From Candidatus Cloacimonadales bacterium (GTDB lineage Bacteria > Cloacimonadota > Cloacimonadia > Cloacimonadales > JAIOQZ01): DNA of 64,000 nt. Numbering within the stretch: the stretch's first letter is position 1; every line of letters starts with the position of its first letter. The position numbers were made by a program. Of the stretch, positions 15,001-27,000 are shown piece by piece. Location: NCBI GenBank assembly GCA_963662655.2, contig CAXXTU010000002.1:3200001-3264000 (forward strand), written 5' to 3'.

Positions 15001-18000
15001 GTTCGCGTTGCTCGTAGGGTGCGGCGCGCCGAAGAAAGAGCTTCGCGAGATCGAGAAGAAGCTCGAGAAGAGACAGTTCGACCAGGCATCGCAGCAGGTG
15101 GAAGAGATCAAGGAATCCACATATTCCAAGAAGGATCGCGTGGTGTTCTATCTCGACGCCGGTACCGTCCATCACTACAACCGCGATTTCGACAAGAGTA
15201 ACCAGCGGTTGGAGGAGGCGGAACGAGCGATCGAGGATTTATTCACGAAGAGCATCAGTCGCGCTGCCGCTTCGTATATCCTCAACGACAACATAAAAGA
15301 ATACGACGGTGAGGATTACGAGAATATCTACCTCAACGTTTTCAAAGCGCTGAACTACGTTGGTAAAGACAAGTTCGATGAAGCATTCGTCGAGATTCGC
15401 CGCATTAACAATAAACTCAATCTGCTTGAAGACAAGTACAGGGATTTGGCGGACGAATACAACAAGTCCAAGGACAGCAAGGCGAAGGTTGAAGTGGGAC
15501 GTAACAGGTTCCACAATTCCGCTCTGGGAAGATGGCTGAGCATGTTGATCTATCGCGCGGAAGGCGACATCGACAACGCGCGCGTGGACCGCGAGGCCAT
15601 CGACGACGCCTGGAAGACCCAGAGCCATATCTATGGCTTCGGGAAGCCGGATTTAAGCCATTATCTCGATGCAACGGACAAGGCGCGTATCGATCTGATC
15701 AGCTTCGTGGGAAAGAGTCCCGAAAAGAAGGCGCACACGCTGTACATCCACACGGAGAACAACCTGATCGTATTTGCTTCAACCGCCGAGAATGAGGACG
15801 GAAGGCAGGTCATGACGAACCTTGCACCGATTCAGTGGCCGGGGATCGAGAAGGGGCTTCACTTCAAGTTCGAGATTCCGTTCTTCGAGCCAAGAGGAAC
15901 CATCGTGAAGAGCGTGAAGGTTCTCGTCGACGGCAAGCAGGCCGGAGAGCTGGAGCTTCTGGAAGACATGGAAAAGGTCGCGATCGAAACCTATCAGGTG
16001 AAGAAGCCGCTCGTCCTCATGAAAACCCTCACGCGTACGATCGTCAAAGGGCTGGTGGCTGCCGAGGGCAAGAAGCAGATGGAGAAGGAGATCAAGGATC
16101 CTCTTCTGGCGTTCGGGGCGAGGCTCGCCACGGATATCGCCGTCGACGCGACGGAGAAAGCCGATCTGCGATTGTCGCATTTCTTCCCCGCGAAGGCGAT
16201 GGTGAAGGAACTGGAGGTCACGCCCGGCGAGCATCAGGTATCGCTCGAATACCGCGGCGCAGGTGGCCAGCTTCTCTACACGCACGATCTGGGAATCAGG
16301 GATTTTCAAGCGGGTAAGCTGAATCTGCTGGAGTCGTACTATCTGAAGTAGGATGAATCGTTGCTGCAACCCGATAAAGGAGATATAATGCGTAAACTAA
16401 TCATAATCACATTACTTGTGTGCTCGGTTTTCCTGTTCGCGAAGAAGCAGGAAGCCCCCGAGTGGCTCGACAACCCCAAGTCGATCTACCCCGACGCGAT
16501 GTACCTGAGCGCTCTGGGTGAAGGCGATACGCGTCGCGGAGCTGAAAGCGACGCGGCGGGAAACCTCTCGCGCATCTTCGAGAGCAAGATCACCGTGGAT
16601 CAGACGTATCAGGAGCGCTACCGGGAATTGACCAAAGGCGTATCCTCCGAGACCGAGGAACTCTCGCAGATGGATCGCAATGTGGGTATCCAATCCGAGC
16701 AGACGCTCTTCAATATTCAGTTCGGGGAATCCTACACCGATCCCAAGGGACGCGTGCATATCGTCGCGTATCTCGATCGCATGAAAACGGGAGAAATCTA
16801 CAGCAGCAAGATCGAGGCGAACGCCAACCAGGTCACATGGTATCTGGGGCAGAAGAAGGAGACCGATGATCTCCTCAAGAAATACGCGCTACAGAACGCC
16901 GCGATTATCATCGCGACGAGCAATCGGGTTTTGCTGGAGCAGCTTCGCATCATCTCGCCGAATATGGCGGAATTCATCGACCTGCCCTACAAGATGACCG
17001 AGCTGGAGACGACCCTGCAAGAGATGGGGAAGAAGCTACAAATATCCATACAGATCAAGGGCGACGAGGAAAACAAGATTGCCAGCTCCCTGAAAGAGAT
17101 GTTAAGCGACGCCGGATTCAGTCTGGGCGATAGCGGTATCCTGAAAATCGATGGTGAAATCTCGTTCGAGATGGTCGATCTGGACAAGCAGGATCAGAAA
17201 TTCGTGCGCTGGGAGATCACGCTCGACCTGAACGATCAGCAAGGCGAAAACCTGATTCACTACTACGAAAAAGGACGCGACGGCCACATATCATATCCCG
17301 AGGCGATGGCACGCTCGATTCGAGAGATCGAGAAGAAGCTGAAAAAGCAGTTCATCGGTAAGCTGAACGATTACATCGATGGGTTAGTGATGACGAAGTA
17401 ATTGTGGTTTTGCCCGAGAGTCCATGCTACATTGTTCCTTGTACTGAAGTCGAATCGCCCATTTTCTGATTTTATTTCAGTAATAATGGGCGTTGTGGAA
17501 TAAATCTTTCATACTGTCAAAGACTTGCCAGAATGGCAAACGTATTTCTGCATTATTTGAGGGGAGATATGAAAAAGATAATCTTTGCGCTTGTGATTGT
17601 GCTGGCGATGTTTATTCTCGTGGCCAAGACGCAATCCTATCACCATGTGGAGCCCGGCAAGTGTATCGGCTGCACGCTGTGCGTTCAGAAATGCCCTGTT
17701 CAGGCAATATCCATGCAGGACGGCAAAGCGGTGATCGATCGCGAAAAGTGCATCCAGTGCGGTCTTTGCATCAAAGCTTGCCCGGTGACGGCCATCTCCG
17801 TCGTGGAAGAAGCCGCGGCACCGGATTCTCTTGCGGAACAACCGGATAGCGTCGATACGCCCAAGCAGGAAGAGCCATCCACAGGCATGATCGAGACACA
17901 GGAAGAACCTGCACCCACTGTGGAAGCCGTTGAAGAGCAGATTGCCTCGACTTACTATCACGTACACGATAATAAATGTATCGGTTGCATGGTTTGCCCG

Positions 18001-24000: not shown

Positions 24001-27000
24001 CCCTGACGAAGGGACTTGATTTCTCGGGAAGGTTCCCGGTTGATTTCGAACAAAAAGAATTGTACATGATGGATGTGTTTGCTCCCGGAAATCAACTGGT
24101 CATTCTTGCGGACAACGACGATCCGTACTGGAAAGAACTTCAGAACACTTTGCAAGCCAATATACAGAAACCGATTCAGTTCATGCCTTTCGATCCCGGT
24201 AAAGACTTGCCGAACGAGGAGACGACTGTCTATATCATACCACAATCGGCCGAGCAGATAGCTCAGGACTCGGGGTGGATCGATTCGCTTCATACGATTG
24301 TCGTACCGAAAGGGTATTCGCCTCAGACCATCGCGGGATTTCTCAAGAAGTTCACGTTCAAGGTGGAAAATAGGCTAAGCTGGCATTTCGATGCCGACAA
24401 ATGAAACAGTTTCCGCATAGACAGACCATAATGAGGGAGAGGAATTCAAGCCGTCTTCGGATGGGACGCTATCTAATTCGGGTGCGGCAATAAGAAGAGG
24501 ATATCGTTTCGCGCGTGGAATCGGTCGGGGGAATCGGCCGCATGGCATCGTTTATCGACTCGGAAGGCAATCGTACTTCACTCTGGTCAAAGCAATAATC
24601 GGGAAGGTACCGGCTTTTTTATGTGAGAAATGGTCTCTCGCGTGGCATCTTCGCCCGATTGCGCCGCTCCACCGTGGATATAATGCACCACGGAGCTATC
24701 GAACGTAAAAAATGTGGTGCATAACACCACGCCTGCGCGGCGAATCGAACCAATCTGCTCACGCTATGCGTGAATGGTGGAGAGAACCTTCCGGTAGACT
24801 TCCAAAGTACGTTCATCGAAGCAAACGAACAGCGTTTTTTCGATCGATGGGAATTCTTTGAGGGCTTCGATTACTGTGTTGATGGCAATTCTAGTGGCTC
24901 GTTCGAGCGGGAAACCGTATGCGCCGGTGCTTATGGACGGGAAAGCGATGGAGCGAATGTTGTTGTTCGCCGCGAGCTTCATGCTTTCGTAGTATGAGCT
25001 GCGAAGAAGCTCGTCTTCGTTGCTGTTGCCACCCCTCCAAACGGGGCCTACGGTATGGATGATGTATTTTGCGGGAAGCTTGAATCCCGGCGAAAGCTTC
25101 GCTTTGCCTGTGGGACACCCACCCAGGTTGCGGTTGTAATCGAGGAGCTCTTTTCCCGCTTTGCAGTGGATTGCTCCGTCGACTCCTCCTCCGCCGAGGA
25201 GAGAGTTGTTGGCTGCGTTCACGATGGCGTCCGTGTCAACTTGGGTGATATCTCCCTTGTGAAGCGAGATTCGCATTGTCATGACTGACTCCCGAAATGA
25301 TTGGTTCTGAACCACCCCGCCACCATGTCAACCAGCTCCACCGGGTTGGAAGCGTTCCTCAGCCTGGTTGGCGTTATCTGTTTGAAGAATTTGCCATAGT
25401 ACTTCGTTTCGACCCTCGTATCGAGAATCAATACAACGCCGCGGTCAGTTTTGTGGCGGATCAGACGACCGAATCCCTGGCGGTATTTCAGGAGTGCGTT
25501 CGGCAGCATGTAGTGCATGAAGGAGTCCTTGCCGTCATCCTTGAGCTTCTCGATGTAGGCTTCCACGATCGGCTCCGAAGGAACCTGGAATGGCAGCTTG
25601 TAGAGGATGAGGAGCGAAAGGGATTTCCCCTGCACGTCCACGCCTTCCCAGAACGAGGAAGTGCCCAGCAGCACGGCGTTTCCGTGCTCGCGGAACTGGT
25701 CCAGCATCGCGCTGCGGTTAAGTCCCTTGCCCTGCGCAAACATGACCACGTTGTTCTGGTACATGACCTCGCCAAGGTTTTCATACATCTGGTTCAGATC
25801 CTTGTAGGAGGTGAACAGCACCATGGAGCCAACACGCGAAGCGAGTAGCGTCTCTTTGATGAGCGTGGTGGCCTGATTGCCGAAAAACCGGTCGGTGTGC
25901 TCGGGCAGGAATCCCGCGACGCAAACTTCCGTCTGCTTCTCGTAGTCAAAAGGCGAGGGAACGACCAACTCGCGGATGTCTCTCGTCTCGACGAGGGAGA
26001 TTCCCATGCGGGTCGAAAAGTATTTGAAGGAGCCCCTCAGCGCGAGGGTTGCCGAAGTGAAAACGATGGTCGGGACGCGATCGTACAGAAGCGAGTTAAG
26101 CTTCTCGTCCACATCCAGGGGCGCGAAATTGAGAATGCCGTTCGGCACCTCCGGGTCCTTCGCGTAAAAGGACGAGAGCCAGAAAACGGTCTTGCTGAAG
26201 TCGGGTTGCTGGAGCAGCTCGAAGGTTTGCAGGAACTCCTTGCAGCGATCGATTGCCCCATCCAGATGCGTCATGTGGGTGTCGTATTCCACGAAGCTCT
26301 CGTGCGGGACATCCACCAGCGCGTCGCGCAGGGTTTGAAGCTCGTTGCGCAGGGTTCTGAAGAACTGGATCAGCTTGCCCATTTCGCTGTTCAGGAACGG
26401 GTATTCGTTGTTGTCCCGCACGCGCAGCTTTCCGTAGGATCCCTTTTTGTCGACCACCCGTCCCGTTTCCTGGAACAGAACCGGCAGGTCGTCGAAAGAA
26501 AGCGATCGCTGGATTTCCTCAATCTTCGCGTGGACGTATTCCTTGGTGGTTTGGTCGATCCTGCTCTTCGCGAGGGCTGCCTTGAGCTGCGGAAGCGAAC
26601 CGCCCTGGAACCGGCTGCGCTGGGAGTAGAGCTGCCGGATGAAGTAGGTGACATCCATGTGCCCAAGGGAGATTCCCAGATGGCTCGACGCGATGTCCGG
26701 CAGGTTGTGGGCCTCGTCGATGATGAGCTTGTCGTATTCTCCGAGCGTCGCGTTGTTGGAGAGGAGGTCGGAGAGCATGAGCGAGTGGTTGACGATCACG
26801 ATGTTGGCGTTTTCCGACGCCTTGCGTATCCTCATCAGATAGCATCGCTTGTACGCGCCGCACTTCCTTCCGTTGCAGAAATGCCGTTCGGTGCAGGTCT
26901 TGCGCCATACGGAGCCGAAGCGTGAGCGACTGAAAGCGCTGTTCTCCGAGACGTCGCCGGTCTTGGTGTAGTGCATCCACACTTCGAGCAGAAGCAGCCC

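What a model noticed while it worked through the whole genome (the two positions that open the first line are those of the whole stretch)
17569..24404. Heme-free 'porin-ferredoxin' operon: Sec-exported and lipoprotein 2[4Fe-4S] ferredoxins with an fn3 spacer, an outer-mem [...]
g02621-g02626 form one operon: a signal-peptide polyferredoxin (4 CxxCxxCxxxC motifs), a lipoprotein with a ferredoxin domain at each end of an fn3 rod, two small exported ferredoxins (one a lipoprotein), a plugless outer-membrane beta-barrel and a CcdA/DsbD-like membrane protein. Relatives carry a NapH-like membrane polyferredoxin in the same locus; here it is g01265 at C2:1473513. The layout suggests an iron-sulfur electron conduit across the envelope in an organism without c-type cytochromes.
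Evidence so far: N-terminal hydrophobic signals and lipobox seen in the sequences. Same six-gene order in 5 of 5 relatives fetched, with the NapH-like gene adjacent in 4 of 5. Ferredoxin genes lie upstream of the CcdA-like gene in 17 of 18 further loci; the 18th starts inside that gene. The lipoprotein N-terminus is found in 35 of 158 phylum genomes from 6 families. About 50 homologs keep signal peptide and Cys motifs while length steps about 113 aa (598, 712, 825, 936, 1048), i.e. a variable fn3 spacer. AlphaFold model of g02625: about 24 beta-strands, pLDDT 78, best matches are 22-24-strand OM barrels, E 6.5e-8. No Ccm, cytochrome or Tat Pfam rows and no multi-CxxCH exported protein in the genome. 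g01344 i [...]
(Added by a program. Inside this text positions count along the whole contig: contig position 3,200,001 is position 1 of the stretch shown here. "Call 12" and the like, gene names such as g00115 and contig names such as C1 are that model's own, and its searches are not shown. The text may have been shortened before it was handed on; [...] marks where a part breaks off. The agent that wrote the report below was given it as the finding of a first reader that could run no searches.)

Follow-up and report, generated by a model that had tools for sequence, protein, structure and literature searches.

The report
Ferredoxin-plugged outer-membrane barrel operon
An uncultured fermenting bacterium with no detectable cytochrome or Tat export genes carries an operon that sends iron-sulfur (ferredoxin) proteins out of the cytoplasm. 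One of them is predicted to sit inside a dedicated outer-membrane barrel, which looks like a haem-free wire across the cell envelope but is untested by experiment.

Summary
The six genes are real and tightly packed. Four encode ferredoxin-motif proteins (A-D) with Sec or lipoprotein signals; the others are an orphan outer-membrane barrel (E) and a CcdA-like membrane protein (F). Close relatives are Ca. Cloacimonadales. No TatC, cytochrome c assembly or menaquinone genes were found.

Corrections: the barrel has 20 strands, not 24. The fixed core is C-D-E; the other genes vary. The fn3 lipoprotein cannot be a wire, since its rod has no cofactor.

New evidence: a complex model seats lipoprotein ferredoxin D inside the barrel, cluster-to-cluster with C (score 0.61, best control 0.00, one of three runs failed). 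Ten of 55 barrels carry a flavinylation-like motif at one fixed position. In relatives the neighbouring slot holds a T9SS-tagged ferredoxin or flavin-motif proteins, and Fibrobacterota copies run into Rnf or NapH/NapG-like genes.

Best reading (0.62): an Fe-S analogue of porin-cytochrome conduits, with clusters loaded after export. Cluster loading, direction and partner are untested. Ten literature searches found no description.

The parts
17569..18138 (+). A: Sec-signal polyferredoxin, two 2[4Fe-4S]-type domains joined by an acidic Pro/Glu linker; probably a periplasmic carrier; variable (14 of 22 loci)
   Evidence: (Fer4 E 5e-29)
18166..21312 (+). B: 1048-aa lipoprotein (Cys21): ferredoxin - 8 fn3-like repeats without cofactor motif (net charge -124) - ferredoxin; repeat number varies between relatives; probably surface-exposed (inferred)
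   Evidence: N-terminal 8-Cys pattern in 45 of 45; 8 or 9 Cys in the last 80 aa in 45 of 45; last motif shortened in 30
21329..21565 (+). C: small Sec-signal ferredoxin, core gene; touches D cluster-to-cluster in the model; presumed periplasmic half of the plug (inferred)
   Evidence: (8 Cys invariant, 55 of 55)
21573..21845 (+). D: lipoprotein ferredoxin (Cys22), core gene; modelled inside the barrel lumen, outer half; tether from lipobox Cys to first cluster Cys is exactly 15 residues in 50 of 54 relatives
21842..23026 (+). E: plugless 20-strand outer-membrane beta-barrel of an unnamed family, core gene; invariant Arg234 (mature numbering) faces D in the model
   Evidence: (pLDDT 87.5, pTM 0.75)
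23028..24404 (+). F: CcdA/DsbD_2-type inner-membrane protein with four invariant Cys (19, 23, 104, 128) and a C-terminal receiver-like alpha/beta domain, duplicated here; usual but dispensable partner
   Evidence: (40 of 40)

Best explanation
The operon builds an iron-sulfur electron path across the outer membrane, the ferredoxin counterpart of a porin-cytochrome conduit. Steps: (1) A-D leave the cytoplasm unfolded through Sec (signals shown in sequence and TatC not found; route inferred). (2) Their 8-Cys domains take up two [4Fe-4S] clusters each after export, with F supplying thiol-reducing electrons as CcdA does for apocytochromes or acting as a membrane relay (inferred; F is dispensable in some genera). 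(3) D and C stack inside barrel E as a detachable plug, giving a chain of four clusters (D in the lumen and the D-C contact are modelled; C's position is inferred). (4) On the inner side, A links the plug to an inner-membrane donor, the NapH-like Fe-S protein or Rnf (inferred from gene neighbourhood). (5) On the outer side, the exposed cluster of D passes electrons to a surface carrier: lipoprotein B, a T9SS-tagged ferredoxin, or in some lineages a covalent flavin (inferred from slot substitution). B's two ferredoxins are about 30 nm apart if extended (fn3 length recalled), so B works as a reaching arm, not a wire. The most likely use is disposal of fermentative reductant to an outside acceptor or partner cell; direction and partner are the weakest steps.
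For: Complex model: score 0.61 against best control 0.00, a mark reached by 116 of 157 solved and 2 of 215 mismatched pairs (counts hold only roughly: own alignments, ligands riding along). Partner pLDDT 61-68; the runs agree in at least 50% of contacts. The score fell to 0.00 when the barrel was replaced with C still present. Contacts fall on alternate residues of strands 3-16 and on the long loops; C residues 10-16 touch D residues 21-25; D residues 53-59 (second Cys motif) are not among the confident contacts. Contact columns are more conserved than the rest (0.46 vs 0.35; 0 of 10,000 random draws) and include the only invariant barrel residue. C-D-E are adjacent in 54 of the 80 loci; most of the others are unrelated ferredoxins or cut contigs. 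A flavinylation-like motif stands at one fixed place after the first strand in 10 of 55 barrels (7 strict [ST]GA[ST]) and 5 of 82 representatives, against a shuffle mean of 0.27 and 0 in 25,165 residues elsewhere. L202 has a ferredoxin-free lipoprotein with two such motifs in B's slot. A signal + ferredoxin + T9SS-tail protein precedes C in 8 loci; the genome has one elsewhere, plus SprA and at least 150 tails. F is followed by rnfG-C-D-E in L195 and similar genes in L194 and L217, and by a NapH/NapG-like fusion in L193, L218 and L219. None of 97 D-positive genomes has TatC.
Against: One of three complex runs scored 0.07, and C was not scored against the barrel. No acceptor, reductase or partner gene is conserved in the loci read. 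30 of 97 D-positive genomes show no F and 15 F-positive genomes show no D (draft genomes, threshold-bound), so the maturation step is not universal. This window's barrel lacks the flavin motif; the 10 carriers are probably close kin; 3 of the 10 and the Fibrobacterota motifs depart from the strict consensus. The conservation test does not control for lumen-facing positions or kinship. Fibrobacterota barrels match the profile only weakly (probability 1% and 11%). The barrel's best fold matches are TonB-dependent transporters, with MtrB 1.5 Z lower. 4 of 97 D-positive genomes do have a cytochrome c assembly gene. No known pathway builds Fe-S clusters outside the cytoplasm (recalled).
Confidence: 0.62

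Rival explanations
1. An envelope redox-maintenance system. The same Fe-S chain carries a trickle of electrons to keep surface or periplasmic thiols and secreted enzymes reduced, or to quench oxidants, and is not an energy-scale electron sink.
For: F is CcdA-like (TM-score 0.53 to 5VKV over 212 columns). DsbD family proteins feed extracytosolic thiol chemistry (PMC8238504, passages). The genome has at least 150 T9SS-tagged proteins. No terminal acceptor gene is seen.
Against: No thioredoxin-like gene was noticed in the loci read (by eye, not by a family scan). F is lost while C-D-E stays in whole genera (g5 0 of 19 and g8 0 of 20 have F, against 10 and 8 with D). Long variable arms and Rnf linkage suggest reach and flux.
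Confidence: 0.15
2. Reductive metal acquisition or metal scavenging. The ferredoxins reduce or bind iron or other metals at the surface, and the barrel, gated by its ferredoxin plug, admits them.
For: The barrel's top fold matches are TonB-dependent receptors (BtuB Z 17.6, rmsd 4.2, 317 aligned). B is strongly acidic. Some flavinylation systems serve iron uptake (PMC8238504, passages). One locus is followed by Fur-like and FeoB-like genes (L081; labels by eye).
Against: There is no plug or TonB box. A chain of Fe-S proteins is a costly tool under iron shortage. Transporter neighbours are not conserved in the loci read. Exact ferredoxin spacing is kept in all C and D.
Confidence: 0.12
3. E is a private translocon (Slam-like) that moves the ferredoxin lipoproteins to the surface; D in the lumen is cargo in transit, not a resident plug.
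For: An empty 20-strand pore fits a folded 60-residue domain. One atlas cluster with 19% SlipAM members scored 0.96 (rank 7, a lead only).
Against: E persists with only C and D in 9 loci scored as lacking both an upstream partner and F (one, L081, is mis-scored). A fixed 15-residue tether, an invariant Arg contact and a flavin motif on the barrel itself fit a permanent redox seat.
Confidence: 0.07
4. The domains have lost Fe-S function and are zinc- or disulfide-stabilised structural modules.
For: Sec export with no known cluster assembly outside the cytoplasm; the last motif of B's distal domain is shortened in 30 of 45.
Against: All 8 Cys and the CP and AI core residues are kept; the D profile's best solved matches are polyferredoxins MvhB and FwdF, and RnfB; redox neighbours recur.
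Confidence: 0.04

Closest known systems
Porin-cytochrome conduits: MtrCAB (PDB 6R2Q) and Geobacter-type Pcc
   Same: A plugless barrel with redox proteins encoded beside it and one modelled inside. Pcc porins have 18-22 predicted strands, and barrel plus periplasmic carrier is the fixed unit while the outer partner varies (PMC4245776, passages), as C-D-E is here. MtrB fold match: Z 16.1, rmsd 5.5, 331 aligned.
   Different: No CxxCH haem proteins and no cytochrome c assembly gene here. The carriers are 2[4Fe-4S]-type ferredoxins, two small ones in place of one multihaem protein. The barrel has no sequence match to any Pfam family specific to these systems.
ApbE-flavinylation extracytosolic systems, NapH-like and DsbD/DUF3570 types (Meheust 2021, PMC8238504; Huang 2024, PMC11334425; passages only)
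   Same: NapH-like (PF12801) and DsbD-family membrane proteins feeding exported carriers; [S/T]GA[S/T]-like motifs occur in some barrels and slot proteins of this family; ApbE is in the genome.
   Different: The carriers here are ferredoxins. F is PF13386, not PF02683. No ApbE, FMN_bind, DUF3570 or thioredoxin hit among the six genes, and no motif in this barrel.
CcdA (PDB 5VKV) and the DsbD_2 family
   Same: Six-helix membrane domain; Cys23 and Cys128 are spaced like CcdA's redox pair (CcdA positions recalled).
   Different: Four invariant Cys and a C-terminal receiver-like domain, and no cytochrome client. Middling fold matches also to Rnf and NqrE membrane subunits (Z 8.3 and 8.2), so a metal site is not excluded.
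Tat-exported Fe-S proteins (NapG/MauM, DmsB of Shewanella DmsEFAB, periplasmic [FeFe] hydrogenase; recalled)
   Same: Ferredoxin-type domains working outside the cytoplasm.
   Different: Those are loaded in the cytoplasm and exported folded. Here there is no twin-arginine motif and no TatC in any of 97 D-positive genomes.
TonB-dependent transporters, including the ferredoxin importer FusA
   Same: Best structural matches of the barrel wall.
   Different: 20 rather than 22 strands, no plug domain, 6-11% identity; the ferredoxins are the cell's own exported proteins.

Membership tests
Porin-cytochrome conduit (Mtr/Pio/Mto/Pcc) | Large plugless outer-membrane beta-barrel | tested here: met
   20-strand model, pLDDT 87.5; aromatic last residue in 46 of 55
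Porin-cytochrome conduit (Mtr/Pio/Mto/Pcc) | Multihaem c-type cytochrome (CxxCH) encoded beside the barrel | tested here: not met
   No multi-CxxCH exported ORF; no PF01578 gene, control rings in 9 of 14
Porin-cytochrome conduit (Mtr/Pio/Mto/Pcc) | Redox partner seated in the barrel lumen | tested here: met
   By model only: score 0.61, best control 0.00, 2 of 3 runs
Porin-cytochrome conduit (Mtr/Pio/Mto/Pcc) | Sequence homology of the barrel to MtrB/PioB or OmbB | tested here: inconclusive
   No such Pfam family among 55 members; fold similarity is shared with all large barrels
Porin-cytochrome conduit (Mtr/Pio/Mto/Pcc) | Measured trans-membrane electron transfer | not testable with these tools
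   Needs a proteoliposome or electrode assay
TonB-dependent transporter | 22 strands with an N-terminal plug and TonB box | tested here: not met
   The first strand begins at mature residue 2; 20 strands
Tat-exported Fe-S protein | Twin-arginine signal and TatC in the genome | tested here: not met
   No [ST]RRxF; TatC not found in a 98.95% complete genome, control rings in 11 of 14
2[4Fe-4S] bacterial ferredoxin | Two CxxCxxCxxxC motifs with conserved core | tested here: met
   Pfam Fer4 above cut-off in A-D; invariant in 55 of 55 C and D
2[4Fe-4S] bacterial ferredoxin | Clusters actually bound | not testable with these tools
   Needs spectroscopy
ApbE-flavinylation systems (NapH-like, DsbD types) | ApbE or flavinylated substrate in the cluster | tested here: not met
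   None among the six genes; ApbE lies elsewhere; motif-like sites only in some relatives
CcdA/DsbD_2 | DsbD_2 membrane domain with conserved Cys in helices 1 and 4 | tested here: met
   PF13386 73 bits against cut-off 24.9; Cys invariant in 40 of 40
CcdA/DsbD_2 | Thioredoxin-linked disulfide relay to a cytochrome or thiol client | not tested
   No client identified
Slam (type XI secretion) translocon | 14-strand barrel with TPR domain (recalled) | tested here: not met
   20 strands and no TPR or SlipAM Pfam hit

The most novel reading that the evidence does not exclude
A porin-ferredoxin conduit: two Sec-exported ferredoxins form a four-cluster Fe-S wire through a 20-strand barrel, clusters are assembled outside the cytoplasm, and surface partners (a variable-length ferredoxin arm, a T9SS-secreted ferredoxin or covalent flavins) let cytochrome- and quinone-poor fermenters of at least three phyla exchange electrons with minerals or partner cells.
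Probability: 0.5. Interest if true: 0.93.

Novelty: categorically new. Interest (0 to 1): 0.82.

Why it matters
The porin-based conduits reviewed in PMC4245776 (passages) all use c-type cytochromes, and exported Fe-S proteins are taken to need Tat (recalled). This locus would break both rules. It gives a concrete, reconstitutable candidate for extracellular or interspecies electron transfer in Cloacimonadota, a lineage of digesters and anoxic waters. For that phylum one study invoked conductive pili rather than cytochromes (PMC7382037, passages). A D orthologue is in about half of the phylum genomes searched, and related loci occur in Delongbacteria and Fibrobacterota. Three small proteins (C, D, E) suffice for a test. 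Even under the rival readings, Fe-S loading after Sec export would be new biology.

Tried and rejected
The promoter and terminator scan was at chance level (6 found vs 7.4 expected; 13 vs 8.9). A single-sequence barrel search found only 3 close relatives; the profile search gave 100 clusters in 1.84 billion proteins, a small family. No RNA holder was listed for the stretch, so there is no evidence on expression. F gave no significant solved-structure match by sequence or Foldseek E-value; the VIA Z values are middling for helical bundles, and no coordinates were available to see whether the four Cys meet. A tree of 78 ferredoxin domains groups B's distal domain with the T9SS-tagged ferredoxins only weakly (89/93, two long-branch cytoplasmic domains included, bootstrap unsettled), and the reciprocal profile prefers D (45 vs 39 bits): a hint only. 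A Bacteroidota-type surface-export signal after B's lipobox (recalled) is not clear: Asp/Glu at +3 in 18 of 20, mean charge only -0.3. Quinol as donor was rejected for this genome: no PF02621 or MenB, and the single UbiA-family gene looks like a prenyl-glycerol synthase by eye. Cytoplasm-facing anchoring as in RnfB was rejected for B and D by the invariant lipobox Cys, but not fully excluded for A and C. Literature searches listed no paper describing the locus (listings and abstract starts seen; the library lacks most subscription journals). Supplementary file 1 of PMC8238504 was not read and may list flavin-motif copies.

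
Full report
1. Observation. The six ORFs are present on + from 17569 to 24404, with gaps of 27, 16, 7, -4 and 1 bases. 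I call them A to F. A (189 aa) has four ferredoxin motifs; B (1048 aa) has a lipobox, a ferredoxin domain, eight fn3-like repeats and a second ferredoxin domain; C (78 aa) and D (90 aa, lipoprotein) have two motifs each; E has no family hit; F is DsbD_2. Named relatives are Ca. Cloacimonadales. Among 37 ORFs of the genome with two or more motifs, these four rank first for N-terminal hydrophobicity, and none has a twin-arginine motif. This is hydropathy, not SignalP.

2. Genome background. In a 98.95% complete genome, no TatC, no cytochrome c assembly gene and no menaquinone pathway marker were found, with controls ringing. Rnf genes (read by eye), ApbE, SprA and at least 150 T9SS tails are present. 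Two related genes lie elsewhere on C2: a NapH-like membrane Fe-S protein at 1473513-1474295 and a signal + ferredoxin + Ig + T9SS-tail protein at 1563089-1563871.

3. What is conserved. B's N-terminus matched 50 of 201 phylum genomes, 47 of them strongly. I fetched 20 of the 47, chosen for spread and contig length, and added 2 loci. Of these 22, 21 have B-C-D-E, 17 have F after E, 14 an A-like gene and 11 the NapH-like gene. The three same-genus genomes keep A-E together and F far away. A scan with the D alignment returned 80 loci, 54 with adjacent C-D-E; F follows in 35, not in 17, and 2 are cut; B is present in 29 (that crude tally mis-scores L067, L081 and L106). By genome, D is in 97 of 201, F in 82, both in 67, D alone in 30 and F alone in 15 (draft genomes and thresholds make these bounds). 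TatC passes its cut-off in 6 of 201, none D-positive; a cytochrome assembly gene is in 5, four of them D-positive. Of 79 metagenome F loci, 49 had enough upstream DNA and 38 of those had three or more motifs there. One of the 38 (L198) owes this to unrelated genes; 7 of the 11 misses are distant DsbD_2 proteins. So C-D-E is the core. All 8 Cys are invariant in 55 of 55 C and D, as is D's lipobox Cys, and the tether is exactly 15 residues in 50 of 54 (23 in this genus).

4. The barrel. The model (21-row alignment) has pLDDT 87.5, pTM 0.75 and 20 strands with no plug. Best fold matches are TonB-dependent receptors (BtuB Z 17.6, rmsd 4.2, 317 aligned), with MtrB at Z 16.1; this only says large barrel. 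The family is small and unnamed.

5. Complex model. E, C, D and four [4Fe-4S] were folded with D scored: median 0.61 (runs 0.61, 0.07, 0.65), best control 0.00; the mark was reached by 116 of 157 solved and 2 of 215 mismatched pairs, counts that hold only roughly here. Partner pLDDT was 61-68 and the runs agree in at least half of their contacts. With the barrel replaced and C kept, the score was 0.00. I recall no solved complex of this kind, so a pass from memory is unlikely, but the model supports binding and does not show it. D touches alternate residues of strands 3-16 and the long loops, in the half of the lumen towards the long loops, which by the usual topology is the outer half. C residues 10-16 touch D residues 21-25, next to a cluster cysteine on each side, and invariant Arg234 touches D22. 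D's second motif is not among the confident contacts. Contact columns are more conserved than the rest (0.46 vs 0.35), a test not controlled for lumen-facing positions or kinship. C's seat in the inner half is my inference.

6. Slot substitutions point to electrons. In 8 loci a signal + ferredoxin + T9SS-tail protein precedes C. Ten of 55 barrels have D/E-x-x-[ST]-[GS]-A-[ST] at one position after the first strand, 7 with the strict [S/T]GA[S/T] that ApbE modifies (PMC8238504, passages). Among 82 full-length representatives, 5 have it, against a shuffle mean of 0.27 and none in 25,165 residues elsewhere. This window's barrel lacks it, and the carriers are probably kin. In L202 the lipoprotein in B's slot has two such motifs and no ferredoxin. 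The locus also occurs in Delongbacteria (L061) and Fibrobacterota (L217-L219, L222), although those barrels match the profile only weakly. There F is followed by rnfG-C-D-E (L195; similar genes in L194 and L217) or by a NapH/NapG-like fusion (L193, L218, L219). Two Fibrobacterota loci have F alone (L220, L221).

7. B and F. B lengthens in steps of about 112 aa with no cofactor motif in the rod, so electrons cannot run along it; it is best read as an anchored arm with a near and a far ferredoxin. Its far domain resembles the T9SS-tagged ferredoxins only weakly, so its surface location is inferred. F has four invariant Cys (40 of 40), a CcdA-like fold (TM 0.53 to 5VKV, E 0.11) and middling matches to Rnf and NqrE membrane subunits. 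It could reduce apo-ferredoxin thiols or relay electrons; whole genera do without it.

8. Mechanism and rivals. Most likely (0.62) an Fe-S conduit across the outer membrane, loaded after Sec export, fed by the NapH-like protein or Rnf through A, and discharging to a surface carrier. Shown: sequence anatomy, conservation, absence of Tat and haem machinery by search. Modelled: barrel, D in the lumen, D-C contact. Inferred: cluster loading, inner and outer partners, direction. Rivals: envelope redox maintenance (0.15), reductive metal uptake (0.12), private translocon (0.07), non-Fe-S modules (0.04).

9. Comparison and novelty. It works like a porin-cytochrome conduit; Pcc porins have 18-22 predicted strands and a fixed barrel-plus-carrier core (PMC4245776, passages). 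It fails membership because it has no haem protein. It is not a TonB-dependent transporter, a Tat substrate set or an ApbE cluster. Ten searches listed no description. I read passages only of PMC8238504, PMC8542988, PMC11334425, PMC4245776 and PMC7382037, and no supplements. Earlier AI notes of this scan reach the same reading in other genomes; they are not independent support and show that the locus has been flagged repeatedly within the scan. I rate it categorically new because cofactor, barrel family and implied biogenesis all differ from known conduits, though the overall design is analogous. Interest 0.82.

Noticed in passing
G000:C2:1563089-1563871 (-), outside the window: Signal peptide + two ferredoxin motifs + carboxypeptidase-regulatory Ig + T9SS tail; relatives of this design sit inside the operon in other genera.
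   Followed up: yes
G000:C2:1473513-1474295 (-), outside the window: NapH-like (PF12801) membrane Fe-S protein. In G086 the same flanking genes surround the whole operon (L039), suggesting that the operon moved away from it in this lineage.
   Followed up: partly
window 23650-24404 (C-terminal part of F): The receiver-like C-terminal domain is duplicated, with a three-Cys linker between the copies, in this genome and three close relatives of 40 aligned.
   Followed up: no
window 12112-13409 (-): Two overlapping ORFs that look like an IS3-family transposase (label recalled); the same ORF starts occur beside the rnf genes (L258:12456-13731).
   Followed up: no
window 13534-17401 (+): Methyltransferase, LpoB-like lipoprotein, TPR-like lipoprotein and LPP20 protein just upstream on the same strand; not seen beside the operon in the relatives read.
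   Followed up: partly
L001-L003, about 4340-9830: In three close relatives F is preceded by a 1786-aa secreted protein with beta-helix-like repeats instead of the barrel.
   Followed up: no
L208-L212, L216, upstream of the match: Distant short DsbD_2 proteins sit next to a membrane NapH-like Fe-S gene with no barrel: the N-F pair may be an older module.
   Followed up: no
L193:10728-11654 (-), L222:8010-9122, L081:4410-5375, L219:1439-4576: Other lipoprotein designs combining fn3-like domains with C-terminal ferredoxins, one also with a flavinylation-like motif (L219).
   Followed up: partly
L115 (whole), L048:617-4162: Rearranged orders: D-E-A-B-F with extra motifs in B, and the barrel upstream of B.
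   Followed up: no
L012 / L041:7510-11877 (G053): B has an in-frame TAA near its start in this genome.
   Followed up: no
window 43483-54898 (+): Three tandem large secreted paralogues sharing an N-terminal FAGGDGS start.
   Followed up: no
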